Translations under genes and position numbers: made by a program
From: Bilabrum cf. latius
Lineage: Eukaryota
NCBI GenBank assembly: GCA_965178125.1
Contig: OZ237751.1
Span: 806,001 to 870,000, forward strand
DNA: 64,000 bases
Direction: 5' to 3'
The notes under the pieces: generated by a model
Databases searched by the model: none
What the model saw: the letters and a program-made list of their open reading frames with translations, nothing else
Told to the model about the DNA's origin: nothing
Shown here: one piece after another, positions 1-64,000 of the stretch
Layout of the letters: each line of letters starts with the position of its first letter
Position numbering within the stretch: the stretch's first letter is position 1

Positions 1-55
1 ACTGCTGGTCGGGAATATCAAACCTTGCAGTCCCCTCGCCGAGATAGCCGGAATC

Positions 56-1737
56 ATGAGCAGAAACTCGCGGCAGTGGCCTGTGACAAGTTTTGGGTGT
101 TCGCCTAGGTTTGAGCCGACCAGTTATCAGCGCTCTGGCGACACGGAACCGGGACCAGAAACACGAGGCCACCTCGACTTGACTCGGTCCTCCCACAATC
201 GCGCTGTTCAAGTCGGCATGGTAAGATCATCTCGATACGTGAAACAGAACTAACATGAAGTTTCTGTGGTTCGTAGTATGTGTCGAAGGCCCATGGAAAC
301 TAGCGTGTGCCTACCATCTCCTTGTTTTTGCAGCAAGCGTTCGGCTCTTTCCAGCAAAGAGAAGTTTCTGACTACGACAAGGCGTTCCCCAAAATGCGAG
401 CTACTAGTAGGGCAGTGCATCCTTCTGATGTCATGGGCGTGCCGCAGAAGTTTGTCCAATCCATTCAACGCGGCATGGAAGCAGCCACAACCACAACCTT
501 GCGACCGCAGTCAACTTCGGCTACCGCCGCGCGGCACAGCCCGACTCACTTGCAACCAACAGTGTCGAGTGCGAGACGCCGCCAGCTCGCTGTCTCCAGG
601 CGAAGGTTCCTTGAGAGCACAGGGAGGGTGCGCCCGTCCTCGGCAGCGACCAATGCCGCCACCGCCACCGCCGGGACGAGGAGCCCGTCGTCCAGGGCCT
701 CTTCGGCCGCGGGTGACGCGGGGAGGCTGAGCTCTAGCAGCGCGTGGTTGTCGCCTGCCACGGTGCAGGGAGATGCCGGCGCTGTACCGGAACTGGAGCC
801 GAGCGAGCAGCTGCAAAGGTCGGTCTACGCCACGCAGTCAGGCGCCAACCGCCCCCACCCTCACTCGTCACACACCTTTGGCAGGATGGCGGTGGACCTG
901 GCGGCCCCCGAGGCTGAAGAGCCGGGCCCCGGGGCGTACTACCCCGAGTGGGCCGTCCCCGGGGGTGGTGGGGTGGCCACTCTGGCAGCCGACTGCTTCT
1001 CCTCTACCAGCCGAAGGTACGCCATGCGGGGCACCATTGGGTTCGGCAAGAGGTGGTGCACGGACGGAGCGAGAAATGCAGCCGTGCCTGCGGGGACTTA
1101 CGTCAGTAATGACGCAAGGGCGCATCCGAGTCCCCACAACTATGACGTCATGGGAAGTGAAGCGGCAATGAAAGCCAGGAAGGGCTGGAGGCCGCCGCCA
1201 CCAGACGCCATGCAGGCCACCAGAGCCAGGGCCAGGGTCTCAGCAATCGCCAGGAAGGCGATCGGGCTGGGGCCTGTCGCTACGGAACATGCTCCGCGCG
1301 GCGCCGCGGCTGCAGTGGTGGCAGCGCTCCCAGCCTCGCCCCTCGGCTGCATATCGCAGGATGGTGACCCGATGGAAGGCGCAGGCGGTGGGGCGGCGGG
1401 CCTTGTCACAGACACAGGCACCGGGACAGGCACAGGCACAGGCAGCGGGCGCGCCCTTGTTGATGATAAGCTGCCTGGCAAGCTGCAAGGACAGGGGGCC
1501 TGGGCGAGGCTTGGGGTGCCGGAACTGTCTTTGGCTGCAGAGAGTGATAGCAGGGGTACAGGGCCTACAAGAGTCCGCGAGACCGCTGGGAAGGGGGATG
1601 CAGCGCGTGCTGCGGCCGTTCCGGTTCCGGCCGACTCGAAGCAGGAGGAGCTGCGGCGCGTGCAGGCGGAGCTCGACCGAGCCAGGCGCGAGGTAGCGGC
1701 TTTGGAGAAGGCTATGAAGTAGAATTCGCGGTATTGA
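56..1737 (+). CDS. SHIPPO-repeat/ODF3-like (probable flagellar) protein; exons 56-220 and 277-1737
   Basis: Intron 221-276 (GTAAGA...CTAAC...TAG) joins ORF 56 to the frame of ORF 307..1722. TAGs at 301 and 1720 are read through; ends TGA 1735-1737, followed by TAA. Motifs FGCSPRF..EPGP, EPGPGAYYP and PSPHNYDV resemble SHIPPO PGPGxY repeats. Confidence 0.6.
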
Positions 1738-1839
1738 TAAGGTTATCGCGTTTCGTCATCGATTGCCCAGAATGAGCGAACCGCTGGAACGAACCTTCAT
1801 CGAATTCTTGGAAATTGCCAAAATCACATATTTGACACC

Positions 1840-2647
1840 ATGGGGTTCCTCTTCTCCAAGCCAAAGCCCCCGCCGCCTCCTGAACCATCTCCCAAAGAAA
1901 AAGCCGAGCTGGAGTTGCGACGTCAGATGGTCAAGGTTGAGAGAATAGCTAGAAAGGTAAGCAAAGTGTTACTTGGCAAATTGCAAACAGCACTGATGAG
2001 GAGCTCTAGATCGCTATGTGTTTTGCTACTGCATTCTTTGTTCACTGTAGATGGAACATGAAAGGGACAGGTTCGACGCAAAGGCGCGAGAGATGCTTCG
2101 AGCTGGCAAGCGAGACGAAGCGAAACGAGTGTTGAAGCTGAAGCAAGTTCGAGTCAAAGCAGTGAATGTGGCGCGGGAGAGTATCCACAAAATGCAATTG
2201 CTCGTAGTCAATATTGAGACGAAGCAACAACAGATTGATATGATGAAAGGCATGGAGGCTGGCACGAGTCTGCTAGAACGGCTTAACTCCGAGCTGCCAC
2301 CTGAACGGGTGGAGGAAATATTGGGTGCCAGCGAAGATGCCGTTGCTGAAGCGTGGCAAACAGCAGAAATGATCGCTTCTTCGAGTTCGGGGGAGCCTCC
2401 AATCGACGAAGCAGCGCTCAATGCTGAACTCGATGCTCTCGTCGGCGGCGTGAGCGCCGCCCCGCCTGCGGCTGCGCCGGTGGCTGCCGGTGCAGCGGCA
2501 GAAGCAGGCTCAAGAGCAGGTCAAGATGATAGTGTGGACGTTTCCAAGCTGCCCGATGCGCCAACAGAGCCTGCACAAGTCGCGGAGGCAGCAGGGGGTG
2601 CTGCGGCAGCCGAGGCAAGCAGGAGGGTCGCAGTGCCAGCCTCCTGA
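1840..2647 (+). CDS. VPS20: ESCRT-III Snf7-family protein, Vps20/CHMP6-like; exons 1840-1956 and 2051-2647
   Basis: MGFLFSK myristoylation-type N-terminus; AELELRRQ..K..R..KR.LKLK helical Snf7 pattern; acidic tail with LPDAPT. Intron 1957-2050 (GTAAGC...TGTAG, phase 0). Ends TGA. Confidence 0.85.
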
Positions 2648-2762: not shown

Positions 2763-5700
2763 TCAGGTGGCCAAGACTGCAGTGCCGCTGTCTGACTCAG
2801 CGGTCGCACCGACGCGCATGAGCTCGACTAGCCCTGCCTCCATCAAGCGAATCCTGCTGGATCGGAACTGGCCAGAGACTGAGAGTCTACTGGGTACCAG
2901 AACTGGTGCTTTGGATCCGGCCTCTGTCTTGGCAGCAGTAGCAGCAGCAGCAGCTGAGTGCTCTGCCACCACTTCTGCGGCACGGTTCATCTCTTTCTGG
3001 TTTTCGATCAACCGTCGGATGGCTGGGATTAGCCTGCGCGCATCTGCGGGTCTGGTGATCCGTTCATATGCAATCTCCGTCCCGTCCTCATCATATTCGT
3101 CTTCTAGGTCGTGATCTTGGTGGTGGTGGTGTTCGTGCTCGCTTCCACTGCTGCACCCCGTAGATGCCTGTGATGGTGTGCAGCAGGCCTTGTCACCGCA
3201 GGCCTTATCGCCACAGGCCTTGTCACCGCAGGCCCTATCGCCACATGCCTTGTCACCGCAGGCCTTGTCGCCACAGGCCTTGTCACCGCAGGCCTTATCG
3301 CCACAGGCCCTATCGCCACAGGCCCTATCGCCACAGGCCCTATCGCCACAGGCCCTATCGCCACAGGCCCTATCGCCACAGGCCTTGTCACCGCAGGCCT
3401 TGTCGCCACAGGCCTTGTCACCGCAGGCCTTATCGCCACAGGCCCTATCGCCACAGGCCCTATCGCCACAGGCCCTATCGCCACAGGCCCTATCGCCACA
3501 GGCCTTGTCACCGCAGGCCTTGTCGCCACAGGCCTTGTCACCGATCTCACCGCAGCAAGCCCCAGAGACAGTAACTTCTGTTTCAGATGGCAATTCAGCT
3601 GGCTTTGTGACTACCATCAGATCAACAGCAGCAGGAGGCTGGGAATACAAGGGGCACACGGTACACGCCGCTCGATCGTACCTGATTCGGCAGCCCACAA
3701 TACCATACTGGCCACCATCTGCTGAGCTGCACACAGTGCTGGCCCCGCCGGCCTCGCTGGCCCCTCCCGTGGCGATGCTTCCCAGCTCCGTGGCAGAGTC
3801 AGGCTGTTCCCCAGCGGACAATGCAACGGCTGTTCCAAACGGGACGCCTGCCGCGGCTCGCCTCAAGAGGTCTCTGTACCGGCTCTCAGCTGAGTCCATT
3901 GTCTCCAGTGCGCGTCCCAGCGGACCACCGGCGGACAGGCGGGTCTGCAGGGTCTATCGATCAAATTCATTGCCGTCATTTCCACCGCCATCACCGTCTT
4001 TCAATTGACCCGCTGTCTCATCTCCAGCCCCAGCGCCAATAGCCGCAGAACCGTCCTGATCACCGAGCACAGTCGGTAAGAAGGGCTCGAGTGCCTCCAG
4101 CACGGTGGAGCCCATGAACATGTCAACCGCCTCAGGGGGCAGCTCGGGGAGACGGGCGAGGGCATCCTCGGGGTGAAGGGAGTCCACGCCCGCGCTAAGC
4201 TCGGTGCTAGGTGCGGTGCTGCTGCCCGTGTCTGATGCCGTGGTAGCCAACGGGTCCTGCTGCCCATCATCGCCATTAAGTACCTCCTCCGGCAGCTGCA
4301 CCGCGACGAGCGAGATGAGCACGTCCTTGGGATTGCGTTCCCTTGGTACGTAACCGTACGACTCGAGGATTTCGGCCGTCGTGCGACTCCCGTAACAATG
4401 GAATACCTCTTCCTCTTCTTCTTCCTCCTGCCGGCACCCTGCTTGATCGCCTGCACCAGTGGCTGCAGAGCGACCCCCGTCTGCCAATTCATCACCCGTG
4501 CTACAAGCTGCAAGGCCGCCGGTGGTCGGATAGTCCCGCTTGCTGATCAGGTGGAACTCCCACGGGGATAGAACTGACCCTGATTTAGATTCAGCCAACT
4601 ACTCCCCAGCTCCCGTCCTCCTGTCCACGGCAGCCTGTATCTCTCGCATGCGCGCTTCCACGGTGTTTAGATGGACCAGCTTTCCGTCCTCGCCTCGCGC
4701 TACTGCGGCGTACTCGGCAGCCGCAGAGCGCGGGGGGGCAGGACCCGACCGCGCCAGTGCCTCCAGGTCATGGGGTGGGGCCTGGCCGTCGTTCCAGGGA
4801 ACTGCCTGGTCTTCATCCTCATCATCGTGCTGCTACGCCCTGGCGCGGTCCACACCAAGCTCAACGTCATCGTCATCGTCGCTGTCGTCTCCTGGGGGCG
4901 GGCACTCGTGGTTCAGGAAATCCACCAGTGGAGCCATCGCGATGCGGGGCACGTGCCTACCGAACGCCCTGGCGCCCTGCATACAGTATGCCCACATAAA
5001 ATCGGAGTGCAGCAAGTCGTCAGCCGCCTGCTGAAGGATTTCATGAACGAGAGAAAGCCCGGCAGGGACATCACCGTGCTCGCCTTTGGCCTGGCCGACG
5101 AGTTCGTCGCAGACTGCAACGGATTCTGCCATGATTGCAGCGAGTCCAATCTATTCATGAACTGCACTTCGAGTGATAGTACCGTTCGCTAGTGTCGCCA
5201 ATTCGAGTGGCGACCAAGAAACCGGGGCATCGCCGGAAGGCCAACCTGTCGGCTTCCTATCCGCCCCGGCCTCTGCAAGCCGCTCCGCGAAGTGTTTCGC
5301 AACGGCGGCACCACATTCACTCTATGTAAACCGAGCTTGCAATGCATCGCACTAGAACGGGCCGCACCCGAGCCGTATACTGGCCACAAAAGGTTGCTGG
5401 TCCAGTGTCGAGCAGCTGCACGGGATACCGGCATCCCTCTCTACAGGTGAACACTTGCCGGCAGAGGAAAGCAAAAACTACAGCGAAAGAATGGAATCTC
5501 GGTCCTCCGTGAGAGACTCGCAAAGGCTTGCAACCTTCTGCAAGGCGACGTGGGGGCACACGAGCTCTGTTGCCGAAGCTGCTGAAGCCAGCTCCATGCT
5601 GTCATCGGTGTGCGCCTCGAGCAGGCAAGCCTTTGGCAAAGCAAATATACTGTCGTTCTTCATGATTCGACGAGGACTATGAGCGGTCACAACTTTCCAC

Positions 5701-5834
5701 CCGGAAGCGTCCGAGAACTAGAAACGAATTGACGGGTGCAACGAGCCCCCGCCCTCGACCAAGCAGGAGACTAATCGATTGCCAATCAATTCAGCTGCTG
5801 GTGGTCCAATAACCATATTCGTTGAGTCGCCCAT
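2763..5834 (-). CDS. SET-domain methyltransferase (SETD3/Rubisco-LSMT-like) with C-terminal Cys pentapeptide repeat
   Basis: ORFs 5478..5690, 4833..5132, 3954..4598 and 2763..3899 share one frame and are separated only by TAG (8 in total). Motifs GGSLHPSI, IFALPKACLL, MAPLVDFLNH, EEVFHCYGSRTTAEILESYGYV. Ends TGA. Start uncertain (in-frame ATGs at 5816, 5834 and about 5912). Confidence 0.8.
3184..3543 (-). repeat. 15-bp coding minisatellite, about 24 units, encoding ACGD[K/R]
   Basis: Tandem units such as CAGGCCTTGTCACCG / CAGGCCCTATCGCCA are directly visible. Confidence 0.97.
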
Positions 5835-6037
5835 TGCCCCCTGTTTGCGCAAGACCTGGGTCAGAGTGGGCCGGAGAAGATGCCGACCTGCAGAAGTCTA
5901 CAGCGTCATCATCTTCAAAATTGGCCCAGGCCCCGAGTTTAGGAGACGGGCCCCAAGTCTGAGGGAAGTGCTGGTTTGTCGAATCTAGCAGTTTGGCAGG
6001 TGCTGACAGCACTGACACGAACGAAATCATGCACACA

Positions 6038-7444
6038 TCATGACACACCCGCACGAACCCCAGCCCCAGCCCCCGCTGCACTGGCAGGTCGCCACCTCGG
6101 AGGCACCCGAAAGTACCGCAGCCCGTGGAGCCCTTCATCCCTGCATACAACTCCAAGCTTCTCAGCGTGGAGGAGGTGGGCCTGCGCGATGGCGATGGAT
6201 ACCTTCAGCTGCATGGCCAGCATCGGCGCGGACACGTACACCTCTGTGTTGTCGCCCATCCACTCCACCAGCTGCTTGGCCACGCCGTCCTCGTCCCGTT
6301 TCGAGTCCTGCAGCACCTGCACGCCAGACGCGAGCCGCCGCAGCCGCAACCCCCGACTGCCGCCCTCCATCAGCTGGCAGGCCTTCAGCAGATCCTCCGG
6401 GGACACGAGATCTGTCCCTCTCGCCCTGTTATACAGGCAGTAGAGGTCGGTCAGCGGGAGCAGCCCACCAGATCCATCCATGAGCGGCAGCGCGAACTCC
6501 GCCACCTGGGTCGACAGCTCCCTGTGGAACCGATCGCCTGCAACCTCGCGAGTGACTGGATTCACGAGGCAGAGCCCCTCCACTGCGGTTGCAACCTTGT
6601 CGTCGTGCGCGCTCGAGGCTTCCCCAGCGATCTGGGACGCTGCGCCCGACCGCCCGGCCCCTGCCGCCGCGGCTTTGGTGCTTCGCCTCGTCCTAGCGTA
6701 CTGCTGGGCCAGCACTGCCACCTCTTTTGCCATGCGCATGAGGCTCGAAAGGTCTCTGAACGCTTCACCTGCAACGCTAGATTCTAGCTGCAGCCTGGCA
6801 CGGTGCTGGTGGCGGATGCGGCCCATCCCCACGGCGGCGCCTTCGGCTTCGCCTGCAGCGATCGCTGCGGCCTCCGCCTCCGAGGCTAAGTCTTCGCGAG
6901 ACACAGTGATCCACGCCTTGCGTTCAACGGCAGTCATGAGGAAACCGAGAAACTCTTCGACGTCGCCCTCAACAAAGCTTATCTTCATGTCGAGTGGCAC
7001 GGTAAGATGCTTCGGGAGGCTTGTGAAGACGTGAGATTGATTCGGATGGACTGCGCTGGACGCAGCAGCGTCGGCAGCGACACTGCTGCTTGCCATAAGC
7101 TCGGCCTCCATTGCTTTCTTGAGTTCGTCACTGGCCCTTGCTCTGAATCGAAGGCGTGGGTGGCTGAACAGCGCCAAGAAACTGGGCCGTTCCGATTCAA
7201 ACTTGTCCAAGGTGGCTAGCTACCAAGCCATCGACACGTCTTTCAAGGATTCATTCACATAAACGATTCGGTGGGTAGTCAGCAGCAGCCATCCTCCCCG
7301 TCGGGAAGGATCTTTCACGCCCTTCAGGTATAGGTGCACCGTCGGGGCTTTGCAATACGCCGTCTCTCCATCGAGATAAATGAGCCCACCACTATCATCA
7401 AATTGAACACTTTCTGCCTGATAGAAATGACCAGGTGTTGACAT
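6038..7444 (-). CDS. VPS36: ESCRT-II subunit Vps36/EAP45
   Basis: The GLUE domain (G.LLLTTHRIVY ... FSHPRL) is interrupted by one TAG at 7220-7222. The C-terminal half has GMGRI, EAFRDLSSLMRMAKEV, NPVTRE, GGLLPLTDLYCLYNRARGTDLVSPEDLLKAC and CRDEGLHGLRYF. Ends TGA. Confidence 0.95.
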
Positions 7445-7556: not shown

Positions 7557-8426
7557 ATGGGGTGTGGTACTTCCACTGCCGCGACGCAGCGAAACATGAA
7601 TTCAGCTGATATTGATCGCATGCTTAAGGGCACTAGGACGCATGGGGGTCTGAACGTTGCGGGGTGCGGGTTGGAAGCCCTTCCACCGCAGCTTGTGGAG
7701 ACTTCGGTCACGTCTAGAATGAAAATCGTTGATGTCAGCAACAACATGCTAGAACAAATTCCCGATGAATTCGTTCAGGCCCCAAGAATGACGAGGCTGA
7801 ACGCCTCGACAAATCGACTGGAGGCCTTGCCGATTCTGCTCGGCAAGGAAGCACCGAAACTTGAGGTGCTGGACCTCCACTCGAACGCGCTTCTGAGAAG
7901 CCTGCCTAGAGAACTGCCTCCCATGCTTCGCGAGATCAACATTTCGGGCTGCCCTTTGACGGAGATGCCCGGGTGCGTCCTGGCGTGCACTCGCCTTCGC
8001 CATCTGAGTGCAAACAACTGCGGGATCTCTGGCCTGCCAGCAGGTTTAGAACGACTTGGAAAGCTCGAGCAGTTGCATCTCGACGACAATAACATTCAAT
8101 CGCTTGCTGGCATAAAGAGCTGGAAGACCCTCAAGGGCCTCTAGGTGGTGTCTCTGCGATACAACCGGATCGGATCTGCAGACGGTGGTGCAGCGGCGGT
8201 TGGTGGAGGTGCCACCAAATCATCCCTCCGAGTCGCTCTGCCTTCTGGGCTCTTCCTCGACACGGCGCTGCACATGCTGAGGCTGGATGGGAACGGGCTG
8301 CAGTCCGGGCAGCTGCTTGATTTGGAGGGTTTTGATGCGTTCCTACAGCGCCGCAAGTAGCGGATCGACAAGTCGATCGGGGCCGGAGGGGCGGCGGATG
8401 CTGAGGCGATTTGCGGGGTGGAGTGA
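7557..8426 (+). CDS. Leucine-rich repeat protein, LRRC57-like
   Basis: MGCGTS acylation motif, tandem LRRs, C-terminal LEGFDAFLQRRK*RIDK like the LRRC57 family. TAGs at 8142 (inside an LRR) and 8358 are read through. Ends TGA 8424-8426. Confidence 0.8.
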
Positions 8427-14400: not shown

Positions 14401-14535
14401 TGATAGGCGGTGTAGGTCTGCGCGATCCTCAGCCGACAGATTCGATGCCCCGACAGCAGAAACGATCTTCGACAGCACAGTGTCCATCGGCGGCACCCGC
14501 CTCTAGAGCAGCGGCTCACGCAACACTAATTCCAT
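8500..14535 (-). CDS. About 2000-aa CLU-domain + TPR protein (clustered-mitochondria/Clu1-like) with Gly/Met/Pro repeat tail
   Basis: Nine listed ORFs from 8542 to 14292 are in one frame and separated only by TAG (about 22). CLU-like motifs: LEMKAARWV, VQARVPVSDATLRYGSSDGGVTIH, DVEIHQLPSGRRIVLDTHRLLMPD. TPR: EMLGPRHQLTSEGLSDLAKAY. Ends TGA 8500-8502. Start 14535 or 14487. Confidence 0.75.
8657..9193 (-). repeat. 42-bp coding tandem repeat, about 13 units, consensus GQRM[AVS]SG[FM]P[MLT]GGMP
   Basis: Repeat is directly visible in the DNA and in ORF 8542..9789. Confidence 0.95.
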
Positions 14536-18769: not shown

Positions 18770-18880
18770 TTTTCCAGCTCAACTGCAGACAATTGGTCGC
18801 CGCAACAAGAAAACAAGATTCGGGATCAGAATAGAAATACGGCATACGATTTGGCTGGACAGTATTCTGTCTTCAATATA

Positions 18881-34100: not shown

Positions 34101-34101
34101 G

Positions 34102-50620: not shown

Positions 50621-50654
<34 letters not shown>

Positions 50655-53071: not shown

Positions 53072-56000
53072 TCACGGCTGCCCCTATCCCTTGGTCTGCT
53101 CCTGTCCATGTCCCGTATGCTCCACGACAGCCACCATTGCGCACAAGAGCTCCCGCAGCCTCGCGAGCGCCAGTTCCCCCACCGGCCAGACCTCCGCTGC
53201 AGGGTCGGGCACGTACTCCCATGGCTACCTGTCACTGCCACTGCCACTGCCTCGAGGACGACCGGGCCTCCTTGCTGCGCACCCGAGTGCCTGGTGGGAA
53301 TGGGATTCTTGCTCCTACCCTACATCGTGCTCACTGATAGCTTTATTTCCGCTATTTAGCCGAGCTAAGCGTCTCGCTGCGGCTTGCAGCATCGCAGTCG
53401 CCGGATGCTTCCCGACCTGCGGACTGCCTCGTGCTGCGGTGCTGGCCCTCAAACCAGCCTCACCCGCTAGCACGTGCATCTCCTGTCGTAAGCTCCGGTC
53501 GATCATGGCCTGGGCCACCTCTGTCTCCGCTTGAGCCACAGTCAGCCCCAGCGCCTGCATGGAGCGGGTCATCATGCCCAGCTCCAGCCGGACCTGCCAG
53601 CCTGCCATCTCAGCCGCCAGTCGTTCCAGCTGTCCTTGCAGCTCCTGAACTATGGGCTCAGGCGGGTGAGCACGGGCCTTGAACGACTCTATGGCCTCCA
53701 GCTCCCTCTCACCCTGCACCTCCTTGAGTGCACCAGGTCCGTGCACACGCAGTGGGGCACCTGGTCGTGTCCCACCCTCGCTCCCATCTGCAGTCCGTTT
53801 CAATCGGTTCAAATCCTGCATCATGAGCTCGTCGGATGGCGTGACTCGGCTCTTGATGGCATCGACCCTGGCGAGAAGGGAGTACGCAGCGGCTTGCGCC
53901 TTTCGAATGTCTCGCAGACAGTCCTGGCGGCGAGCGGCTTCAGCTTCAGCGGATGCAAGAAGGGGACGGCCATCGCTGCGTGCCTACGGGTCACCGCTCC
54001 CTTCCGCTATTTGATGCGATTGCTCTTCGGCCTCTCCAACACCCTCCCGCGCGCGTTCCTCCAGCTCATCCACCGCCTCTGCGAGCCCATGCGCCTGGCT
54101 GAAGAGCACCTTGCTGCGGGCCGCCAGCGGGCTGGCCGAGAGCTTGACCGCGAACGTGAAGCGAGTGCCCTGCACGGTGCTGGCAGGAGGTCGCGCGGAG
54201 TGCGGGATGTTACCATTGAACAGGGCCGCTCTTCCAAAGCGCGGGCTGACAGTTGCGATCACCTCCAAGCTCGGTCTGCTACCCCGGGTGCCTCCCTCGG
54301 CGCGCTGGTGTCCTGGCCTGCCGATATCCTCGTCTTCATCTTCCTCGGCCCCGCCCTCGTCCTCTTCATCCTCGTCATCCTCGTCATCCTCGTCATCCTC
54401 GTCTTCATACTCATTTGGATCGCCGCTTCTTTCTGTTATTGGATTCTCGACAGCGTCGTCCCAGAACATGGTCTCGCCGCCGTCGCCGTCCCCTAGGTCC
54501 TCGTTCAGGTAGATCAGCAGCGTGCGCTCCACCTCGTTCTCGCTCGAATCCGTGTGGTCTCTCGTGTGATCCCAGGCGCGTATGATGTTGCAGCTCACGT
54601 CATACGGGTGAAATCCCTCCCAAGGAGCTGCCGCGTCCACTAGGCCCTGCAGCGCGCCCCCCCATAGCCTGCTCCCCACGAGCGCAGCCACCTCTGCCCC
54701 GATGATCCACTGCACGTTGTCCGAACTCGGGCTCTCCGAGTCGTCAAACGATAGGGTGGCATTTTGTGCAAAGTACGCTCGCAGAGCACGCAGCATTCGC
54801 CCAGTCTCTGATCCTGCCATTGCGCCGTCCACCACCGCCAGCCGGCGGCCTACGGAGGTCCATCGCAACACGGCTGTCAGGTTGCCCTGCTGCTCACTCC
54901 GCTGCTGCGAATTGCTATCAGACTAGTTCGCACGGCTGTAAGTGCCAAATTCTGTCTCAGGGAGGTGGAAGACGCCCCTGGGGAAAGTCTCCCATGGCGA
55001 GGGAGCGAGCGCCATCGACACCATGAACTGCTCCACTGGACGCAGAGGGGAGAGCAGCGACTGCTGCGTCTCTCCGCCGGGTCGATCTACTTCCGGCCCA
55101 CGGGTCGACCGCGAAGATTGAAAAGCCGACACCAGGTCTTCATTTTTGCCAAACTCAGGGGTTTCCGCAAATCGGTCTGGGTGCAATTCGCCAGGCGGCT
55201 CGGTGTCTCGCTCTACCGGCGGCAAGGCGGCAGCCGACGCACGCGCCGCCAGGGCAACCGGGCGAGCCATCGCGTGCATGATCGTTTCCATGCAAGAGTG
55301 GATAGAACCCGCGCTGCATGCTGCAGCGTGATCTTCTCGTGGCTACTGCGCCGCCGAGTTGGTCGCAAGCCGCGAGGAGGCGAGCTCGGGCTGCTAGGAA
55401 GCGAGCACGGCAGTCGACAGGAACACGCTGCTCTTGCCGTGCTTGATCGACGGCGGTGTCACTCTAACCCCTGCTTGTCGCCCTGCATCAGAGCCGCAGT
55501 CCACGACCAGTGCTCTCCCAGCCGTCGGGCGAACGGCCGTGATTGCCTCCCAGCTGCCCGCAGGTGCGCTGCTCCGTTGGTGCACCACCAACTCGCCATA
55601 CCCGTCGTGGCCGTCGCCCCCACCAGAGCCAAGCGACATCAAAACTTGATAACGCAAAGGTGCATCTCCCATGGTCTTTTTGTCGGGACAGACGGGGGCT
55701 GTGCGGGTGGGGTCGCCCCGGCGAGCTACGACTGCGAAGGATTCTGCAAATTTGCTTGGTGGTGCCCATGTTCCAGATCCAGCGTTGCCGGCCAATTCGG
55801 CAACAATGGAATTGATTTCTTGCCCCAAGCTAGACTATGACAGCAAGCTGCTTCGAATTTTAGAGCCAAACTTCATGCCTGGAAGGTACGTCGCGCTGGA
55901 GCCGCGATACTACGAGCCCTGTATGTTTGCACGACTGCGCACAGGCATATTTTCCCAATCTCCTCCCAAGGACAAGTACTCCCTCCATTCAGCAGCATGC

Positions 56001-56149
56001 TAATGAGCGGCCGGTATATCGCAGTACCATCCCAGCGGCTCGTCGGAGTCTGCGCTTCGAAGCTCCTCGCACACAGCGCGGTGCCCTGAGTTTGGTTCCG
56101 TTCCAAGGCTGAGCTCAGTCAAGAAAGCAGCAAATGCGAGCACCTGCAT
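53072..56149 (-). CDS. About 1025-aa protein with putative signal peptide and 2OG-Fe(II) oxygenase domain(s)
   Basis: Five ORFs in one frame, about 10 TAGs. DHTD..TLLIYLN..GGETMFW..VSPRFGRAALFNGNIPHSARPP..RFTFAVK. An upstream degenerate copy (GELVV..VRPTAGRALVVD..PPS). Ends TGA 53072-53074. Confidence 0.8.
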
Positions 56150-56340: not shown

Positions 56341-58176
56341 ATGTTTCTTCTGGTAGCGGCAGCAATCGTAGCGGTGTCGCACGCGCGGCGCGAAGTTAGG
56401 TTACCTCCGATTAATAAGCCGATGAGTGTCGCAGAGCTCAAAGCGAGCATTTTGCGAGAGTTTGAGGAGCCTCGTGAGGAATATCAAGCGAACCACGATG
56501 AAGTATCTTCTACGCCCGACCATGAACCTCCTCACGAGGTTCTGTTTACGAATGTCATCGGCGGGGACGAGGTTGAAGAGGAAGCTCGGGTTGCGATCGT
56601 GTCCGTGCCGCGCTCCGAGCTTGACTACGCAATGCTCCACCCGGCAGGATCTCATCTGCACGGATATGCATCGACTGAAGACATCGAAAGAGCGGGGCAC
56701 ATGCTTGTGAGGTGACTCAATCGTCTTTTGCCCGCGACAACCAAAGACTCGCCCACCAGTCAGCACGCACCACGCATCATGCTTCTTTGCACTTGACCGC
56801 AGGTAGTCAACTTGAACAAAGCTGGAATGCACGTGCACAACATGCAAGATAACCTCTTGTACTACTGCTAGTCGAGGAGGGGCCGTGAGACTATCGTAAA
56901 CGCAAGTCACAACCACCTGGAGTACGCATTCGAGGGAAGCCAGTGGCAGCTCACCGCAGACGAGAAGGCGCTGCTCTCTGAAGAGTACAAGGAAGAGGTG
57001 CTCCAGCGGCTGGGATGCCACGAACTCATGGAAATTCTGGTCAAGCGCCCCAGGATCGTGCTGCAGAAAGCCAAGCGCCCGGAGCTGGGCCAGGCCCTGG
57101 ACATCGCGCGCATCGAAACCAGACCGGTGTTCAAGAACATGTTCACGCGGCAGCACCTCCTGCCCACTCCTGCCGGCATCGTGGTTGGACGAGCAGCGCA
57201 CCCCTCGCTCGCCGACAGCCAGGAGCAGCTGCTCCTCGGCCTGCACATCGCGGGCGGGGAGCCGTTCGCCAAGGCAGGCGAGGACATCACGTTGGAAGGG
57301 GGCGACTATTTTTGCCTCAAGGCATCCAGAGACCTGACTCTGATCGGAACCGGGCGCCGCACCACGGAGGCAGCGGTGCGCTGGCTCATGCGGATCGGGG
57401 CGCCGCGCACTCGCAGGATTGCCGTCGTGCGGAACCTCGACGACGCTGCCCCGGAGCGCGCCCACCTGGACACCGTCTTCAACGTGTTCACCTCGCAGAA
57501 GGCCATCTTGCTGGACCGGACGGACGACGGTGATGAGGGCTACAAGCGCGTGGTCGACCTCTGGGAGCGGCCTGAGGGAACAACGGACCCCGAGGGGCCG
57601 GGGGATGCCCCCACCTCGGGGACGGGGTCCTATACAAAGACCCCCGGCAAGCAGGGGATCCCCCTGGGGAAGTACCTCAGGGAACAAGAGGGGTACGAAG
57701 TCATCCGGATGTCCCTGGGGCAGCAGGAGAACTTCTTCTCCACCTTTGCCCACCTAGGGGGGAAGACGATCCTCACCGGGTCACAGGAGCTGGAGGCGTT
57801 TGCCAGGGAACACGGGGTGTCGGAGTAGGAGGCGCAGTTCCAGTACCTCCCTGTGGAGGCCGTGCATGCACTGCACGGTGGTGTCCGCCACGCCGTCCTG
57901 CTTGGCCGCCAGCTCCCGTTCGGTACGGAGGAGGGCTTCCCCTAGTCGCAGGAGGAGCACGAGGCCCTGGTGAGGCAGGTGTTGGGGGTCAGGTTCGTGC
58001 CGGAGGATGGGGCCAGTGGGGAGGAGGAGCAGGAGGAGGAGGAGTGGAGGAGGTAGGATTCGGGCGGGGTGCCGTTCGATGAGATAGAGATGGCAGGGGC
58101 ACAAGGCGATGAAGACCACGGGCTCGGGCTTGGAGGTGGAGATGGGGAGGTGGGCACGGGCCGCGATTCGCTATGA
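56341..58176 (+). CDS. Arginine deiminase-like (amidinotransferase fold) protein with signal peptide, probably catalytically altered; intron 56707-56802
   Basis: LHPAGS, SEEYKEEVL, NMFTRQH..TPAGIVVG, LEGGDYF, LIGTGRRT, HLDTVFN, LHGGVRH. 4 TAGs; ends TGA. Confidence 0.8.
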
Positions 58177-58481: not shown

Positions 58482-59258
58482 TCACGTTGCTGCACCTCCA
58501 GCCGCTTTCGACCTTGATTCCTCCTCTTTCTCCTTCTTGATCTCCTCTTCCTCGTCGCTGTCCAAGGGCGGGATCTCGTCGTTCCGCACGGCGAGCGCGG
58601 GACACTCGAAATTCGCGTAGGTCTCGTACTGGTACACGAGGTTGGGGATGCTCGGCCGGAACTTGCAGGTCGAAACTCCCAGCAGCTCGCGCAGTTTGGT
58701 CTCGTTCTCTCGTATTGTTGTTCCCAGGACCTTGCCGATCGGTTTGCCTTCGTCCGATTTGCCGCTCTTCAGCAGCAGTGCAGAGGCCTCAGCGTACTTG
58801 GCCCACACCTCGTGCGTAATGAAGGGCGGATCGATTACCACCAAATCAAAGGTTCCGTGCAAATCTGGGCTGATGTCCTCCGGCTTATTGAAGTCATAGA
58901 AAACAAATCCTGGGTCCTTTCCGAAGGCAGTAGAGTCAAAGTCGAAGCACTTGCAGCTTCGTCTAAGGTCTGCCGAGACTGAGTAATACAGCGATGGAGT
59001 GGACAAGAATGCCACGTTGCCCCCACATTCTTCGATAGCTTGCACAAAAACATCAATCGTGTGCTGCGAGTACCAGTACTGGTTCATGTCCTCCTTCTGC
59101 GAAGCTCATTGGGGAGTTGCAGTTGGGTCTCGACCAATGTGACACGCATTCAAATCGTGGACAGAATCCGGCTACTAGTCTCCAACGATGTCACTCACTT
59201 CTTCAACATCTTTCAGAAAATTTGCTTTGGAGACATCAGCCTCCGCAGATGCAGCCAT
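58482..59258 (-). CDS. EEF1AKMT1: EEF1A lysine methyltransferase 1 (N6AMT2/Efm5); intron 59097-59198
   Basis: EDMNQYWYS..T, VAFLSTPSLY, FVFYDFNKP, FDLVVIDPPF, CKFRP..Y.NF. Intron GTGAGT...CGCAG. Ends TGA. Confidence 0.92.
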
Positions 59259-59553: not shown

Positions 59554-62500
59554 ATGCCTACGAGGGAAGCAGTGTCAGTTGTCAAGGGCACATCTGCTGG
59601 AGCTGCTGCGAGGTTGATGAAGTCTCCTGTCGAAGCTGCGGCACCCAACCCGGTCGGAAGCAAGCCGAGCAACGCCGATGAATCCCCGTATGGCGGTAAT
59701 GCTTCGTCAAAATCGCCATGGAACACGGACGGGTTGAGCGTTGCTGCTCTCGCAGCGCTGCACGGCGAGCTCGAGCTGGCTACCGAGTTGGTGTCGAACA
59801 GACACTTCGTCCAGTCACCCGACGGCATGATGGAGGAAGCGAAGCCCGACATCCCCGTGCCGAAATGGCTGCTTCGCGATCGCTCCGGCGCAGCGATCGC
59901 CGCCAGGGTGCGCAGGAGGCAGCAGCTCCTGCAGCCGCTGCTCCATGGAGACATGCAGCCGGCACCCGCCCTGGCAGTGGCACCCGCGCCTGCTGTACAG
60001 CTAGCCTCGGCCTCCCCCGTGCGTCCACGTGCAGGCGGCGGAGCCACTCGCAACGGCGAGACAGGCGGCGCCGCGCACTCTGTGTTCCGCTAGGCCAGGG
60101 GCTGGGCGCTGCTGCGGCGGGCCGTGCTGCAGCCCGGGTGGCTGGCGGAACACGCGGACGGCCTGTGGCCCGGCGCTGTTCCCCGCCCCCCGCGCGGGGG
60201 ACTGGAGCTAACCCTGGAGGTGCCCAAGCGGCTCGCGCCCCCGAAGCCTGCGGAACCGACGGGCGCCGAGGCGGCGCCGCGCAGGCACGGGTCTGGTCCG
60301 GAGGGGTGGCAGGGCACGGCCTGGCTGCAGGTAGGCGGGGGGGACGCAGCCGGCGCATCGCCCACCGCGGGTGGGGACGAGGAGGATGACGATGACGATG
60401 GTGCGGACCTGACGGGGGAGGAGACCCTCTGGACGCCGGAGTCTTGTTCCCCGGAGCATGGCTGGGTGCGGATGCCGCTACGGGTGAGGCGGGGCAAGCG
60501 CCTGCCGGGGGGGCGCGTGGAGCTGAGGCTGTACTCGCCCCCAGGAGGCACGCCCGCCGACGAGCACTGTGCGATTCCCGTCCACTGGCAGGCGCAGGAG
60601 GCGGCGGGCTCCACGGTGGGGCCGAAGGGTGTGACGAGTGCGCAGGACGGGGTCCGCCCGGGGACGGCTGGTTCTGCGGGGTCTGTGCGAGGGTCGTCTG
60701 CGTCTGCCGGCAGGGGCGGGGGCGGGGGCGGCTCCACGGGGCGGGGCGGGGGCGGGTCCGTGCGCGCGGATCCTGACGAGTGGGCGACTGAAGGTGGGTA
60801 CGAGAGCGGGGCCAGCGAGGAGGAGGAGGTGGCGGTGCCCGTGCGGGTGCTGCTGCAGGCGGGTCCGGCGGGCAGAGCTCCGCTGCTGCGCTGCCGCATG
60901 AACGGGCGCGTGGGCGTGGAGGAGCTGGAGGCCTGTCTCGAGGCCAAGGGGAAGGACAGCCTGGCGGGGACGTGGAGGGAACAACAGGCGGGGGCCGTGG
61001 AATCGGAGCTGAAAACCGGCGGGAGAGACAGCAGCCACAGCAACGGCAGCAGCAGCAGCGCCGGCCCGTGGGGAGGCAAGGTGGACGAGGACCAGGGTGA
61101 CACCGACGATGTGACGAGTGTCAGGGAACACATCCAGGGGTCGCGCTCGCTGGTAGGCACCACCCGCGTGGTGGACGTGCTTCAGGTGGGGACGGCACGG
61201 GGTTCATTCCGCTGGCGCGGCTTCCTTCTGGCACCGCCTGTACACGAGGAGTCTCCGGCGGATGCGGCAGCCGCGGCCAATCCCCGGATCCAGTGGCCGT
61301 CCTTCATCCTGAATGACGAGTGGCCCAGCGCCAGGGTGTTGCTGGGGCACAGGGGCAGCGGGCAGGACTCGGCTGCCAGGGTGGCCGCGGGGAGTCCTCC
61401 CCTCGGGTCGATTGCTTCCTCTGCTGCTGGTGCTGATGGCGGGACAGGGACAGGGACAGGGACAGGGGCAGGGGCAGGGATAGGGATAGGGACAGTGACA
61501 GATGCCGCTGCCACTCCCCCGCTGCAGCTCCCCGGGGCAGGCACTGCTGGTCGCAAGGACGTCCCAGCGGGCGTAGAGGCGGAACCGGGGGAATTGCGAT
61601 CCGGTGATGGACACACCGCAGCCGCGGCTGCTGCGGTTCGTGCGAGCCAGAGCCAGAGCATGAGCCACCCCCTCACCGATTCGTCGGGTTTGGTCCAGCG
61701 ACCCTCCCACGCGAAATCGGCCCGCTGGAGGACCCATTTCGCGGAGAATACGCTCACGTCAATCCTGCAGGCAGGTCTTGCGGGCGCCCACGGCGTCGAG
61801 TTCGACGTGCAGCTGACCAAGGACGGCCTGCCCGTGCTCTTCCACGACTCAACGGTACTATTGGAGGGCGGCAGGGTGGTGCCGCTCTCCCACCTCACCG
61901 CCGCAGACCTCGGGATCCGCACTCGTCACACCCAGGGAACAGCGTCCCAGGCGGGGCTGGGGATCGGCAGGCAGGGCAGCAGCCGACTGGCCCTGCCGCT
62001 GCCCAAGCCGGACGCCGCCTGGCTGGCTGCGGGCGGGGCCTCCTGGACCGAGTCGACTAGGCGGGCTGGGGTGGGGCGGCACGGGGGGGACTGGGCCGTG
62101 CCTGCTGCGCCGGGAGTATCGGGTCACGGTGAGGTGCCGCGCGGCGCCAGCGGAACCGGCGGGAGGGCGCGGAGCAAGGGCTCAACGGCGGGATCCTCGG
62201 AGGGCGGGCCGGGGTCCGTGGGGGACAGCGGCAGCGGGGGGGCGGCGGCGGGGGCGGTGCACCAGCGGGGCGTGTCTGGTACGAGCGCCGCGGGGGATAG
62301 CGTGGGCGATGCGCTGGCCGTGGCGGCGCGCGCAGCCGCGTCTCCGGCCTCCCCCGCTGGATCGACGGTTGGCTCGGCATCGGCAACTGGTTCCGAAGGT
62401 GGGGATCCGCCCAGGATCGCGGGGACGGACACAGGAAGGGGTGGCGAAAGTGGCACATCCAGGGAACAGCAGCAGCAGGTCGGAAAGGTCCTGTTCGAGC

Positions 62501-63453
62501 GCCGGGGCAGGGCGGCCACGGCCCCCACGGCAGAGGGCCCGGGACTGAACCGGGACTTGCTGGAGGCGGAGGCCAGGGGGCTGGATACCTCGCTGGCCGA
62601 GGCGGTGGGGGTGCACAGGGGCAGCGAGGGGGAGGTCATGGGAGTCACTTCCTTGGGAGTCACTTCTGGAGGCGGTGCTTCTGCCGAGTTTGGGGGCGGG
62701 GACGATGAGACGGGCAGCGTTGGTGGCCGGTCCACCCGTGGATCGGTGCGGTCCATCTCGCCGCCCCCCGCTACGGGGGCGAGGGCCAGGGGCGTTGGGG
62801 GATCCACCGGTGGATTGGAGCACGCCCACGCGAGCGCCCCTGGCCCGTCCCCCCTGCTGCACGACGGGGGTGTGCCCACCCTCCGCAAGGTCCTCCGCAA
62901 GGTGAGCAAGGAGCAGCTGCTGGACGTAGAGCTAAAGTACCCCACCCACCTCGAGAGCAGCATAGGGTCCGGCAAGGCCGTCGGGGCGCGCCCATGGCCC
63001 AGGGCTGCATACCTCGCCCGGGTGCTGGCGGTGCTGCGGACGCACTGTTCCCCGACGCAGCCCGTGTTCCTCAGCTCGTTCGACTGGAAGCTGTGTGCCC
63101 TTGCGGTGGCCGCGCAGAGGGCGGGGGGGCGCAGACGGTTTCCGGTTTTGCTGCTCACGGAGGCGGGCACGGAGGTGGCCCGTGAGCCCGAGGGGCGGTC
63201 GCTGATGGCGGCGTGCGAGTTCGCCAGCGCGTGGGGCCTGCAGGGCGTGGTGACGCACTGCCGGCCGCTGCTGGCCTTCCCGGAGCTGGCTCGATGGATC
63301 CGTGGGCTGGGGCTGCGGCTGGCCTCGTTCGGCAGCCCCAACAACGGGGCGGCGGCGGTGCGAAAGCAGTTCGAGGCCGGCGTGAGCGTGGTGTGCTGCG
63401 ACCACGTGAGGGAGGTGGTGAGGCGGCTGGCGAGGGACGAGAAACGGGAGTGA
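59554..63453 (+). CDS. Glycerophosphodiester phosphodiesterase (GDE1/GPCPD1-like) with long insertions
   Basis: LGHRGSG, ENTLTS, VEFDVQLTKDGLPVLFHD, VPTL..VL, DVELKYP, FLSSFD, GVSVVCCDHV. N-terminal part joined through TAG 60091. Ends TGA. Confidence 0.9.
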
Positions 63454-63645
63454 GCGGCGCGCCGCGTGGGATCTTCCCCGCCCCAGGAGGTGCGATAGAA
63501 TTGGTTGCGCTTCTAGCATTTGCCAACATGCGTTGTATCGCGTGCTTGAAGAAAACGGAGATTTGTTTGAAGGTTTCAGCCGCAAGGTTCCGCTGGCGGC
63601 GCCAGGCACCTGCTCGCGGCGATTGAGGTGAATCCATTCTGCCAA

Positions 63646-64000
63646 ATGCAGGCATGCTCGTAGAACCACGCAACCTATCGATCCGGTACATCGATTGGTC
63701 AGGATGGTTTTGTGACTAGCAGCGAGTTCGAATATGCATCTGTAGGCTTCGAGAACCAGCTCGAACCTCCGATTCCCGCGGTTGCATCTTTGAATTCCAG
63801 CGTGGGGATCTGCAGCGCAGACCTCTTTGAAGACGGAAGCACCTTGCTGGGTGATTCAAATGCATTTCAAGCAATAGTAAGTCGAGCAAGGAGCGGTGCT
63901 GGAGTCCGCGGGTTTGTCGTGTAGCGGCAACCTAGTCTTGCAACGCGAATCGAACGGTACGCGCGCCCCCCTCCTCTCTCTGTCCGGTCACCGCAGAAGC
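63646..64000 (+). CDS. Possible 5' part of a gene running off the window
   Basis: The frame from ATG 63646 stays open to the window end if 2 TAGs are read through. No recognisable motif. Confidence 0.3.

What the first reader, a model, noticed from the sequence alone, without database searches (positions are those of the whole stretch)
1..64000. Nuclear genetic code variant: TAG is a sense codon, most likely glutamine
Seen: about 100 in-frame TAGs (hand count) interrupt 22 of 24 gene models, including conserved ones. Examples are the VPS36 GLUE domain (7220), an LRR (8142), RWDD3 (TAG-TAG at 41530), the protease pro-region, MRS2 and MscS. The frame always resumes unchanged, and up to nine supplied ORFs fuse into one 6-kb frame. 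Gln is indicated by context: CAGx5-TAG-CAGx3 at 30294-30320, QEQEQ*Q at 36548, *QQEQDQEQ at 48888, *EQQQEQ at 49701, and RSL*AQQW at 23836 (compare RRLQ later in the same protein). Established: nuclear UAG-only reassignment to Gln (table-15-like) is rare, reported for example in the fornicate Iotanema and some ciliates. Inference: the genome style suggests a Cafeteria-like stramenopile, where I do not know of this code, so it may be an independent origin.
Basis: partly seen in the sequence, partly recalled or inferred. Interest (0 to 1): 0.97.

Follow-up and report, generated by a model that had tools for sequence, protein, structure and literature searches.

The report
TAG codon read as glutamine
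This stretch of a GC-rich microbial eukaryote's nuclear genome, like related DNA in environmental samples, uses the stop codon TAG as a codon for glutamine, a rare kind of genetic-code change that is known from only a few other lineages.

Summary
I built 25 ORF pieces, which make about 23 genes. They carry 108 in-frame TAGs and no in-frame TAA or TGA, and 22 of the 23 genes have at least one TAG.

In 15 Pfam-supported frames, reading TAG as sense doubles the total ORF length, from 5,905 to 12,195 aa. Reading TAA or TGA as sense adds almost nothing.

The same TAGs appear unchanged in contigs from runs of four separate studies.

A metagenome scan found 27 related loci. All 27 open up only when TAG is read as sense.

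I aligned the window's CLU-like protein with 20 of the locus ORFs. Gln is 3.8-fold enriched opposite TAG. Of 30 TAG cells in conserved columns, 18 sit on Gln-majority columns, compared with 83 of 124 for genuine Gln. Gln also has the best likelihood.

In the relatives, both TAA and TGA close ORFs. In the window, TGA closes 23 of 23 genes.

Not shown: a tRNA with a CUA anticodon, any change in eRF1, retention of TAG in RNA, and which lineage this is.

Verdict: a UAG-only reassignment to Gln (like NCBI table 15), and so a new member of a known kind. It may be an independent origin.

The parts
8500..14535 (-). CLU-like/TPR protein gene, 2011 codons, 22 in-frame TAGs, ends in TGA. It is the '6-kb frame' and the query for all searches for relatives.
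   Evidence: (Pfam CLU 8.2e-7, TPR_12 1.6e-10). The TAG at residue 63 lies opposite Q in a 77%-identical relative. The TAG at residue 863 lies in a Q-majority family column.
6038..7444 (-). VPS36 (ESCRT-II) gene. One TAG at 7220-7222, inside the region matching the GLUE/Vps36_ESCRT-II domain.
   Evidence: (EAP30 1.9e-42; Vps36_ESCRT-II covers residues 25-101). A 96%-identical Logan protein starts only after the TAG, at Met117.
7557..8426 (+). Leucine-rich-repeat protein gene with 2 TAGs, one at 8142-8144 inside an LRR.
2018..2647 (+). Snf7 (ESCRT-III) gene, 1 TAG, ends in TGA.
2763..5912 (-). Gene for a 1049-aa protein with no Pfam match, 9 TAGs, ends in TGA.
14675..18769 (-). Gene for a 1364-aa low-complexity protein, 9 TAGs, ends in TGA.
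18758..20659 (+). Gene for a 633-aa multi-pass membrane protein, 5 TAGs. One TAG is 7 codons before the terminal TGA.
21019..24045 (-). Leishmanolysin (M8) gene in two exons, 3 TAGs in all. The inferred GT..AG intron at 23168-23302 splits the HEAIH motif. The TAA at 23299-23301 is part of the 5' splice site, not a codon.
   Evidence: The intron is inferred from the sequence and is not confirmed by RNA.
24778..27168 (+). MscS-like channel paralog 1, 3 TAGs.
27222..32750 (+). Gene for an 1842-aa low-complexity protein, 15 TAGs, including CAGx5-TAG-CAGx3 at 30294-30320.
35204..37840 (+). MscS-like channel paralog 2 (with EF-hand), 3 TAGs. The gene ends ...GAG TAG TGG TAG TGA.
38092..40983 (+). 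MscS-like channel paralog 3, 4 TAGs.
41101..42453 (+). It has tandem TAG-TAG at 41530-41535.
42509..44511 (-). Cupin_8/JmjC-like gene in two pieces in different frames. The upstream piece, 43840-44511, has 2 TAGs.
   Evidence: That the two pieces form one gene is inferred from the Pfam profile positions they match (3-63 and 155-248).
44862..45737 (-). Gene for a membrane protein, paralogous to 47140-48003. 1 TAG, ends in TGA.
47140..48003 (-). Gene for a membrane protein, paralogous to 44862-45737. 3 TAGs, ends in TGA.
48219..51200 (-). MRS2-like Mg2+ transporter gene, at least 6 TAGs. The 5' limit is not fixed: the open frame runs on, antisense, into the next gene.
51460..52899 (+). 2OG-Fe(II) oxygenase gene, 1 TAG.
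53072..56149 (-). Gene for a 1025-aa protein with a 2OG-Fe(II) oxygenase domain, 10 TAGs. One TAG is 4 codons before the terminal TGA.
56827..58176 (+). Gene for an arginine-deiminase/amidinotransferase-like protein, 4 TAGs.
58482..59087 (-). N6-adenine-methyltransferase-like gene. This is the only gene model with no TAG. Ends in TGA.
59554..63453 (+). GDPD-domain protein gene, 1 TAG.

Best explanation
In this organism's nuclear code, UAG is an ordinary sense codon read as glutamine. It makes up about 13% of Gln codons in the window. UGA terminates every gene seen here, and UAA is not a sense codon. This matches NCBI table 15 (UAG-only to Gln).

The trait is shared by a group of relatives found in environmental assemblies, where UAG is about 23% of Gln codons and both UAA and UGA close ORFs.

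The mechanism is inferred, not shown. The likely route is a tRNA-Gln whose anticodon changed from CUG to CUA and which is still charged by GlnRS, together with an eRF1 that no longer recognises UAG efficiently but still recognises UGA (and UAA). This is the scenario proposed for Iotanema in PMC5304391. TAG codons then arise from CAG by single C-to-T changes at Gln sites and at tolerant sites.
For: TAG is sense, shown in the window:
- 108 in-frame TAGs and no TAA or TGA in about 23 genes.
- Only reading TAG as sense extends the 15 Pfam-anchored frames, from 5,905 to 12,195 aa.
- TAGs lie inside regions that match Pfam domains, in VPS36 and in the LRR protein.
- These are not assembly errors. 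Contig pieces with 0 differing letters cover 43, 38, 31 and 12 of the 43 TAG codons in 5900-25899, in runs X3, X5, X6 and X7 from four studies.

The trait is shared:
- All 27 of 27 related metagenome loci reach a longest ORF of 332-2178 aa with TAG as sense, against 165-505 aa under the standard code. They never exceed 505 aa with TAA or TGA as sense.
- Other genes on those loci also carry TAGs: GH3+WSC has 9, penicillin amidase has 3, and Pan3 has 5.
- The close relative P0018 (70% identical) ends exactly where the window has the TAG at residue 371, which points to a shared TAG.

The residue is Gln:
- Alignment of 21 rows with 187 TAG cells: the residues opposite TAG are enriched for Q 3.82-fold, K 1.61, E 1.59 and R 1.42, while L is 0.53 and W 0.68.
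- In columns where at least 60% of the other rows agree, 18 of 30 TAG cells sit on Q-majority columns. The same test gives 83 of 124 for real Q, and its likelihood version recovers the correct residue for all 20 amino acids. The likelihood for TAG is Q +18.8, K +0.2, E -13.6.
- Counted by column, 7 of the 19 conserved columns that hold a TAG are Q-majority, against 8 of 328 conserved columns overall (binomial P=2e-7). One column has 16 Q of 17 residues plus 4 TAGs, and another has 10 of 10 Q plus 5 TAGs.
- Window-specific evidence: TAG at residue 63 is opposite Q in a 77% relative. TAG at residue 863 is in a column with 9 Q of 13 residues plus 3 other TAGs. A TAG in MscS paralog 1 is opposite Q and H in the two paralogs. 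There is also CAGx5-TAG-CAGx3.

Stop codons: TGA closes 23 of 23 window genes. In the loci, TGA closes 11 and TAA closes 6 of the 17 ORFs of at least 400 aa.
Against: - Most of the evidence for Gln comes from one gene family in the relatives. Only four or five of the window's own TAGs are informative.
- Some single sites point elsewhere. The window TAG at residue 271 is opposite E in a 70% relative. Two MscS TAGs are opposite W/R and W/E in the paralogs.
- In PDB alignments of the locus genes, TAG lies opposite G,G; E,T; M,N (amidase) and P,P; S,N; Q,K (GH3).
- Against more distant homologs, the window TAGs at residues 997 and 1139 lie mostly opposite S/T/E.
- No tRNA was found in the window or in the 27 loci, and there were no Rfam matches. 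No eRF1 or GlnRS gene is in hand.
- No run is on record as RNA, so it is not shown that TAG is kept in mRNA.
- TAG is over-represented just before the terminal TGA: 6 observed against 1.7 expected in the last 15 codons, P=0.008. This would also fit some remaining use of TAG as a stop.
Confidence: 0.85

Rival explanations
1. UAG has two meanings depending on context. It is read as Gln inside genes but still terminates translation at some gene ends, as described for Condylostoma, Parduczia and Blastocrithidia. On this view, several of the 'terminal TGAs' would be just the next stop in the 3' UTR.
For: In the window, TAG is enriched in the last 5, 10 and 15 codons before the terminal TGA: 4, 5 and 6 observed against 0.57, 1.13 and 1.70 expected (P=0.003-0.008). 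Five of the 19 genes are affected. One example is MscS paralog 2, which ends GAG TAG TGG TAG TGA.
Against: The same pattern is expected if genes that once ended in TAG now read on to the next stop. Five of 19 is about the share of TAG stops one would expect in a GC-rich genome (my estimate from general knowledge, not a tool result). In the related loci the enrichment is not significant: 5 observed against 2.7 expected, P=0.14. According to the passage read in PMC11687900, dual-meaning codons are depleted, not enriched, near true stops. The sample is only 19 genes.
Confidence: 0.12
2. UAG is a sense codon but stands for a residue other than Gln, for example Glu, Lys, Trp, Ser or Leu. UAG to Leu, Ser and Glu codes are already known.
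For: E, K and R are also mildly enriched opposite TAG, at 1.4-1.6-fold. One TAG is opposite E in a 70% relative. Two MscS TAGs are opposite W in a paralog. EQEQEQ-TAG-Q would fit E by alternation.
Against: The likelihood puts Q at +18.8, against K +0.2, E -13.6, S -28.5, L -98.6 and W -163.1. Q-majority columns account for 18 of 30 TAG cells, against 2 for E, 1 for K and 1 for W. L and W are depleted opposite TAG, at 0.53 and 0.68. The residues that are enriched (K, E, R) are the usual substitution partners of Q.
Confidence: 0.05
3. The TAGs are not translated at all. They would be assembly errors, pseudogene decay, or sites edited or spliced out of the mRNA.
For: No run on record as RNA was available, so editing cannot be excluded directly.
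Against: The same TAGs occur with no differing letters in contigs from runs of four studies. 22 of 23 genes are affected, yet none has a TAA, a TGA or a frameshift. The pattern recurs in 27 of 27 related loci, and TAG falls specifically on conserved Gln columns. Runs X5 and X7, which are only guessed to be RNA (the tool itself marks X5 'probably DNA'), keep 38 and 12 of the 43 TAGs.
Confidence: 0.02
4. Both UAA and UAG are reassigned to Gln, as in NCBI table 6 (many ciliates, hexamitids, ulvophytes), and TAA is merely rare because the genome is GC-rich.
For: No gene in the window ends in TAA (0 of 23), so TAA is not shown to terminate in this organism.
Against: Reading TAA as sense extends none of the 15 Pfam-anchored frames except M8, where the TAA is the GTAAG of an intron. 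CAA is a third as common as CAG (166 against 507), so if TAA meant Gln, about 30 in-frame TAAs would be expected alongside the 99 TAGs. None joins two coding pieces. In the relatives, TAA closes 6 of 17 long ORFs.
Confidence: 0.02

Closest known systems
Iotanema spirale (Fornicata), with UAG to Gln and UAA/UGA kept as stops (PMC5304391; passages read)
   Same: Only UAG is reassigned, and to Gln. UAG is a minority Gln codon: about 8% in Iotanema, and 13% here or 23% in the relatives. The proposed route, a tRNA-Gln changing from CUG to CUA plus an altered eRF1, is the one I infer here.
   Different: Iotanema is described as an anaerobic flagellate. This window encodes two 2OG-Fe(II) oxygenases, a JmjC-type cupin, and MRS2-like and CLU-like proteins, which suggests an aerobe with ordinary mitochondria (inference). 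Here the genome is 60% G+C and TGA closes 23 of 23 genes. The eRF1 T32G change reported for Iotanema could not be checked.
The ciliates Hartmannula sinica, Trochilia petrani and Protocruzia tuzeti, with UAG to Gln (PMC11687900; passages read)
   Same: The code is the same (table 15). The share of TAG on conserved Gln columns is similar: 58-70% there and 60% here. Most genes carry at least one TAG.
   Different: Those ciliates use UAA for 87-98% of their stops and have 27-54% G+C. Here UGA is the only terminator seen and G+C is 60%. The window is a 64-kb multi-gene stretch with a canonical intron of about 135 nt. That this organism is not a ciliate is inferred, not tested.
UAG-only reassignments to other residues: the rhizarian exLh and TARA phyllopharyngean ciliates (Leu), Scotinosphaera (Ser), and Oligohymenophorea sp. 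PL0344 (UAG=Glu, UAA=Lys) (as cited in PMC11687900 and PMC5304391)
   Same: UAG is uncoupled from UAA.
   Different: The residue differs. Here Leu is depleted opposite TAG (0.53-fold), Ser is neutral (0.96), and Glu scores well below Gln.
Codes with context-dependent stop or sense meaning (Condylostoma, Parduczia, Blastocrithidia; as summarised in PMC5304391)
   Same: An excess of TAG close to gene ends leaves room for a residual stop function.
   Different: In those organisms the reassigned codon is also the regular terminator. Here a dedicated terminator (TGA) follows every gene.

Membership tests
NCBI translation table 15 type (UAG=Gln; UAA and UGA stop) | In-frame UAG within conserved protein-coding genes, with the reading frame continuing | tested here: met
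   108 TAGs in about 23 genes. Pfam-anchored ORF length doubles only when TAG is read as sense.
NCBI translation table 15 type (UAG=Gln; UAA and UGA stop) | UAG aligns with conserved Gln | tested here: met
   18 of 30 TAG cells, and 7 of 19 TAG-holding conserved columns, are Q-majority (baseline 8 of 328). Q is enriched 3.82-fold and has the best likelihood. This rests mostly on the relatives. Window TAGs at residues 63 and 863 agree.
NCBI translation table 15 type (UAG=Gln; UAA and UGA stop) | UGA still terminates | tested here: met
   TGA closes 23 of 23 window genes and 11 of 17 long locus ORFs. Reading TGA as sense only adds 3' tails.
NCBI translation table 15 type (UAG=Gln; UAA and UGA stop) | UAA still terminates and is not a sense codon | tested here: inconclusive
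   TAA is not a sense codon in the window. It closes 6 of 17 long ORFs in the relatives. But no window gene ends in TAA (0 of 23).
NCBI translation table 15 type (UAG=Gln; UAA and UGA stop) | UAG no longer used as a terminator | tested here: inconclusive
   There is an excess of TAG in the last 15 codons, 6 observed against 1.7 expected. This fits either leftover former stops or residual termination.
NCBI translation table 15 type (UAG=Gln; UAA and UGA stop) | A tRNA with a CUA anticodon and Gln identity | not testable with these tools
   There is no tRNA gene in the window or in the 27 loci, and no whole genome is held.
NCBI translation table 15 type (UAG=Gln; UAA and UGA stop) | eRF1 N-domain changes that weaken recognition of UAG | not testable with these tools
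   No eRF1 gene is present in the window or in the loci examined.
NCBI table 6 type (UAA and UAG = Gln) | In-frame UAA in coding genes | tested here: not met
   No TAA joins two coding pieces. The one apparent case is an intron 5' splice site.
UAG=Leu codes (the rhizarian exLh type; table 16 meaning) | UAG at conserved Leu columns | tested here: not met
   0 of 30 TAG cells fall on L-majority columns, although L-majority columns are the most numerous. L is 0.53-fold opposite TAG and its likelihood is -98.6.

The most novel reading that the evidence does not exclude
This is an independent and fairly recent UAG-to-Gln reassignment in a GC-rich, probably aerobic protist clade that lies outside the ciliates and fornicates and is so far visible only in unnamed environmental assemblies. 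In the window's organism TGA has become the only terminator in use. Former TAG stops survive as read-through relics a few codons upstream of the new stop, or they still terminate in that context.
Probability: 0.4. Interest if true: 0.8.

Novelty: new member of a known kind. Interest (0 to 1): 0.68.

Why it matters
According to the 2024 survey passages I read (PMC11687900), nuclear codes in which UAG is split from UAA are known from fewer than ten lineages. Each new case tests ideas about why UAA and UAG usually change together and how eRF1 can lose recognition of one purine-ending stop only.

This case differs from the known ones in two ways. The genome is GC-rich and terminates with UGA, whereas the others are AT-rich and terminate with UAA. 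It also comes with a set of relatives that use TAG and TAA to different degrees, which could allow the steps of a reassignment to be ordered.

There is a practical consequence too. Standard-code gene calling breaks nearly every gene of these organisms into fragments. The public protein collections already hold such fragments (P0001, P0016, P0018 and many of the 109 hits).

Tried and rejected
- Whole genome: none is held for this window.
- tRNA and Rfam scans of the window, and a tRNA scan of the 27 loci, found nothing.
- RNA evidence: no listed holder is on record as RNA. Contigs of X5 and X7 (RNA status is only a guess) stop near gene borders, and their per-contig depth differs between genes while X3 is flat. 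I treat this as a hint only. No contig joined across the inferred M8 intron.
- The first CLU search with near lengths found nothing. The search for shorter proteins found one fragment.
- Neighbour-composition classification of TAG was not discriminating.
- A PDB search with the ADI-like protein gave no match. The VPS36 GLUE alignment to yeast was too weak to read a residue. PDB alignments of the locus amidase and GH3 gave mixed residues.
- Looking at which window residue follows the C-terminal ends of the hit fragments gave no signal.
- A 30-row alignment was too diverse for the locus scan, so I used a 9-row block instead.
- Cluster look-ups gave no organism names for any close relative.
- The protein-atlas search did not accept the TAG=Q translation of VPS36, so I obtained no atlas neighbours and no lead on taxonomy.
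- Five literature searches found no report of a GC-rich non-ciliate with UAG=Gln. Papers outside the held library, and supplementary files (not consulted), may hold one.
- Rejected readings: TAA as sense, TGA as sense, UAG=Leu, pseudogenes.

Full report
**What is there**

The window is 60% G+C. It is eukaryotic nuclear DNA. Pfam finds the following:
- VPS36 and Snf7
- a CLU-like/TPR protein
- leishmanolysin
- three MscS-like channels
- an MRS2-like transporter
- two 2OG-Fe(II) oxygenases
- a Cupin_8/JmjC protein
- an arginine-deiminase-like protein
- a GDPD protein
- an LRR protein
- an N6-adenine-methyltransferase-like protein

Under the standard code these genes are broken into pieces. With TAG read through they become single frames of up to 2011 codons.

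My 19 main gene models cover 16,593 codons and hold 99 in-frame TAGs. Six more ORF pieces add 9 TAGs. Of about 23 genes, 22 carry TAG.

**Is it more than chance?**

- In the two off-frames of the same genes, TAG:TAA:TGA is 210:79:641. The coding frames have TAG only.
- I anchored on a residue inside each of 15 Pfam matches. The enclosing ORFs sum to 5,905 aa under the standard code, 12,195 aa with TAG as sense, 6,084 aa with TAA as sense and 6,515 aa with TGA as sense.
- The single gain from TAA as sense is in the leishmanolysin gene. There the TAA is the GTAAG of a GT..AG intron at 23168-23302, which splits the HEAIH zinc motif.
- Two cautions apply. Unanchored, TGA as sense opens even more long frames across the window, because TGA is the commonest stop triplet in GC-rich DNA. 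TAG as sense also produces false antisense frames rich in TAG, such as 21401-22852 (+) and the upstream part of 48219-53222 (-).

**Are the TAGs real?**

Contigs from four coded runs of four studies were laid on 5900-25899. The listed pieces carry no differing letters. They cover 43, 38, 31 and 12 of the 43 in-frame TAG codons in that region. The nine variant positions reported in that region do not touch a TAG codon.

None of the runs is on record as RNA. X5 and X7 are only guesses, and the tool itself marks X5 'probably DNA'. Retention of TAG in mRNA is therefore not shown.

**Relatives**

- A 96%-identical VPS36 fragment in a public collection begins only after the window's TAG.
- A phmmer search of 1.84 billion representative proteins with residues 1-1200 of the CLU-like protein gave 109 hits, most of them short fragments.
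- Two of these are close relatives. P0016 (77% identical) reads Q opposite the window TAG at residue 63. P0018 (70% identical) reads E opposite the TAG at residue 271, and it ends exactly before the TAG at residue 371, which points to a shared TAG.
- A scan of metagenome contigs with a conserved block of this family matched 73 stretches, of which 27 were confirmed as loci.
- All 27 loci (52-59% G+C) have a longest ORF of 165-505 aa under the standard code and 332-2178 aa with TAG as sense. None exceeds 505 aa with TAA or TGA as sense.
- Unrelated genes on these loci also hold TAGs: GH3+WSC, penicillin amidase and Pan3.

The trait therefore belongs to a group of organisms, not to a single assembly.

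**Which residue?**

The window protein hit 26 locus ORFs. I left out one 115-aa fragment and five near-identical copies. I aligned the remaining 20 with the window protein, giving 21 rows.

- 150 columns with at least 8 other residues hold 187 TAG cells.
- The residues opposite TAG are enriched for Q 3.82-fold. Next come K 1.61, E 1.59 and R 1.42, which are Gln's usual substitution partners. L is 0.53 and W is 0.68.
- In columns where at least 60% of the other rows agree, 18 of 30 TAG cells lie on Q-majority columns. The rest are R 3, V 2, G 2, E 2, K 1, W 1 and A 1. The same procedure applied to true Gln gives 83 of 124.
- A BLOSUM-based likelihood recovers the right residue for all 20 amino acids. 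It ranks TAG as Q +18.8, K +0.2, E -13.6.
- Counted by column rather than by cell, 7 of the 19 conserved columns with a TAG are Q-majority, against 8 of 328 conserved columns overall (P=2e-7). Seven of those eight Q columns contain a TAG.
- TAG cells fall in conserved columns about as often as Gln cells do: 30 of 187 against 124 of 645.

**Evidence that does not point to Gln**

- The neighbour composition around the window's TAGs is only weakly Q-enriched (1.59-fold) and does not classify TAG as Gln.
- In the three MscS paralogs, TAG lies opposite Q/H, W/R and W/E.
- Against distant homologs, the window TAGs at residues 997 and 1139 lie mostly opposite S/T/E.
- In PDB alignments of two locus genes, TAG lies opposite G,G; E,T; M,N; P,P; S,N; Q,K.

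These are single, mostly variable sites. They do not outweigh the controlled family statistics. They do show that the window's own TAGs sit largely at poorly conserved positions, and that the Gln call leans on the relatives.

**Stop codons**

TGA closes 23 of 23 genes in the window, and TAA closes none. In the relatives, TGA closes 11 and TAA closes 6 of the 17 ORFs of at least 400 aa. TAG makes up 12.8% of Gln codons in the window and 23% in the loci.

TAG is over-represented in the last 15 codons before the terminal TGA in the window: 6 observed against 1.7 expected, P=0.008, in five genes. In the loci it is not significant: 5 against 2.7. I read this as former TAG stops that are now read through to the next stop. 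Residual termination at such TAGs cannot be excluded.

**Mechanism (inferred)**

The likely mechanism is a tRNA-Gln(CUA) derived from tRNA-Gln(CUG), together with an eRF1 that has lost recognition of UAG. This is what PMC5304391 argues for Iotanema (passages read). Neither component could be looked for. There is no tRNA gene in the window or the loci, no eRF1 gene, and no whole genome.

**Comparison and novelty**

According to passages read in PMC11687900, UAG-only reassignment to Gln is known in Iotanema spirale, Protocruzia tuzeti, Hartmannula sinica and Trochilia petrani. UAG to Leu or Ser is known in a few other lineages. The ciliate cases described there (27.4-53.6% G+C) stop mainly at UAA.

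This case has the same code in a 60% G+C genome that stops at UGA. Its genes suggest an aerobic lifestyle (inference). Five literature searches found no matching report, but the library is incomplete and I did not consult supplementary files.

The lineage is unknown. The 'Cafeteria-like stramenopile' suggestion was not testable, and all close relatives are unnamed.

I class the finding as a new member of a known kind, with a fair chance of being an independent origin.

Noticed in passing
whole window; terminal codons of 23 genes: TGA is the only terminator seen (23 of 23) and TAA closes no gene. In the related metagenome loci, TAA closes 6 of 17 long ORFs. TAA may be nearly unused in this organism.
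   Followed up: partly
394-1737, 8500-14535, 18758-20659, 35204-37840, 53072-56149 (3' ends): A TAG lies 1-14 codons before the terminal TGA in five genes: 6 TAGs against 1.7 expected, P=0.008. These are either former TAG stops that are now read through, or TAGs that still terminate.
   Followed up: partly
all in-frame TAGs of the 19 main gene models: The base after an in-frame TAG is A in 29 of 99 cases. After CAG it is A in 45 of 507 cases. TAG therefore has a different 3' context from the main Gln codon. Unexplained.
   Followed up: no
23168-23302 (-): An inferred 135-nt GT..AG intron (GTAAGA...CAG) splits the HEAIH zinc-binding motif of the leishmanolysin gene. The Cupin_8 gene (42509-44511) also seems to be split, with its two pieces in different frames.
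   Followed up: partly
L001-L027 (metagenome loci): The CLU-like/TPR family is greatly expanded in the relative. There are at least 20 distinct paralogs, 25-55% identical to the window protein, on contigs of a few metagenomes. Near-identical copies (99.6-100%) recur across different metagenomes.
   Followed up: partly
24778-27168, 35204-37840, 38092-40983; 44862-45737 and 47140-48003: There are three MscS-like channel paralogs, two of them adjacent, and a pair of paralogous membrane proteins with no Pfam match.
   Followed up: no
33884-34921; about 3200-3500 within 2763-5912 (-); about 8560-9100 within 8500-14535 (-): Long in-frame tandem repeats are present: a (Pro-Ala)n and (Ser-Thr)n tract, GDKAC/GDRAC repeats, and GGMPGQRMSSG-like repeats at the C-terminus of the CLU-like protein.
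   Followed up: no
11231, 12011-12058: Variant letters occur at about half depth in run X3 (42 of 84) and also in X6. This looks like two alleles or haplotypes. None of them touches a TAG codon.
   Followed up: no
21401-22852 (+), 48219-53222 (-): Reading TAG as sense also opens false frames antisense to real genes, with 11 TAGs in 483 codons in the first case. The MRS2 frame runs on, antisense, through the neighbouring oxygenase gene. Gene callers set to table 15 will over-extend such frames.
   Followed up: partly
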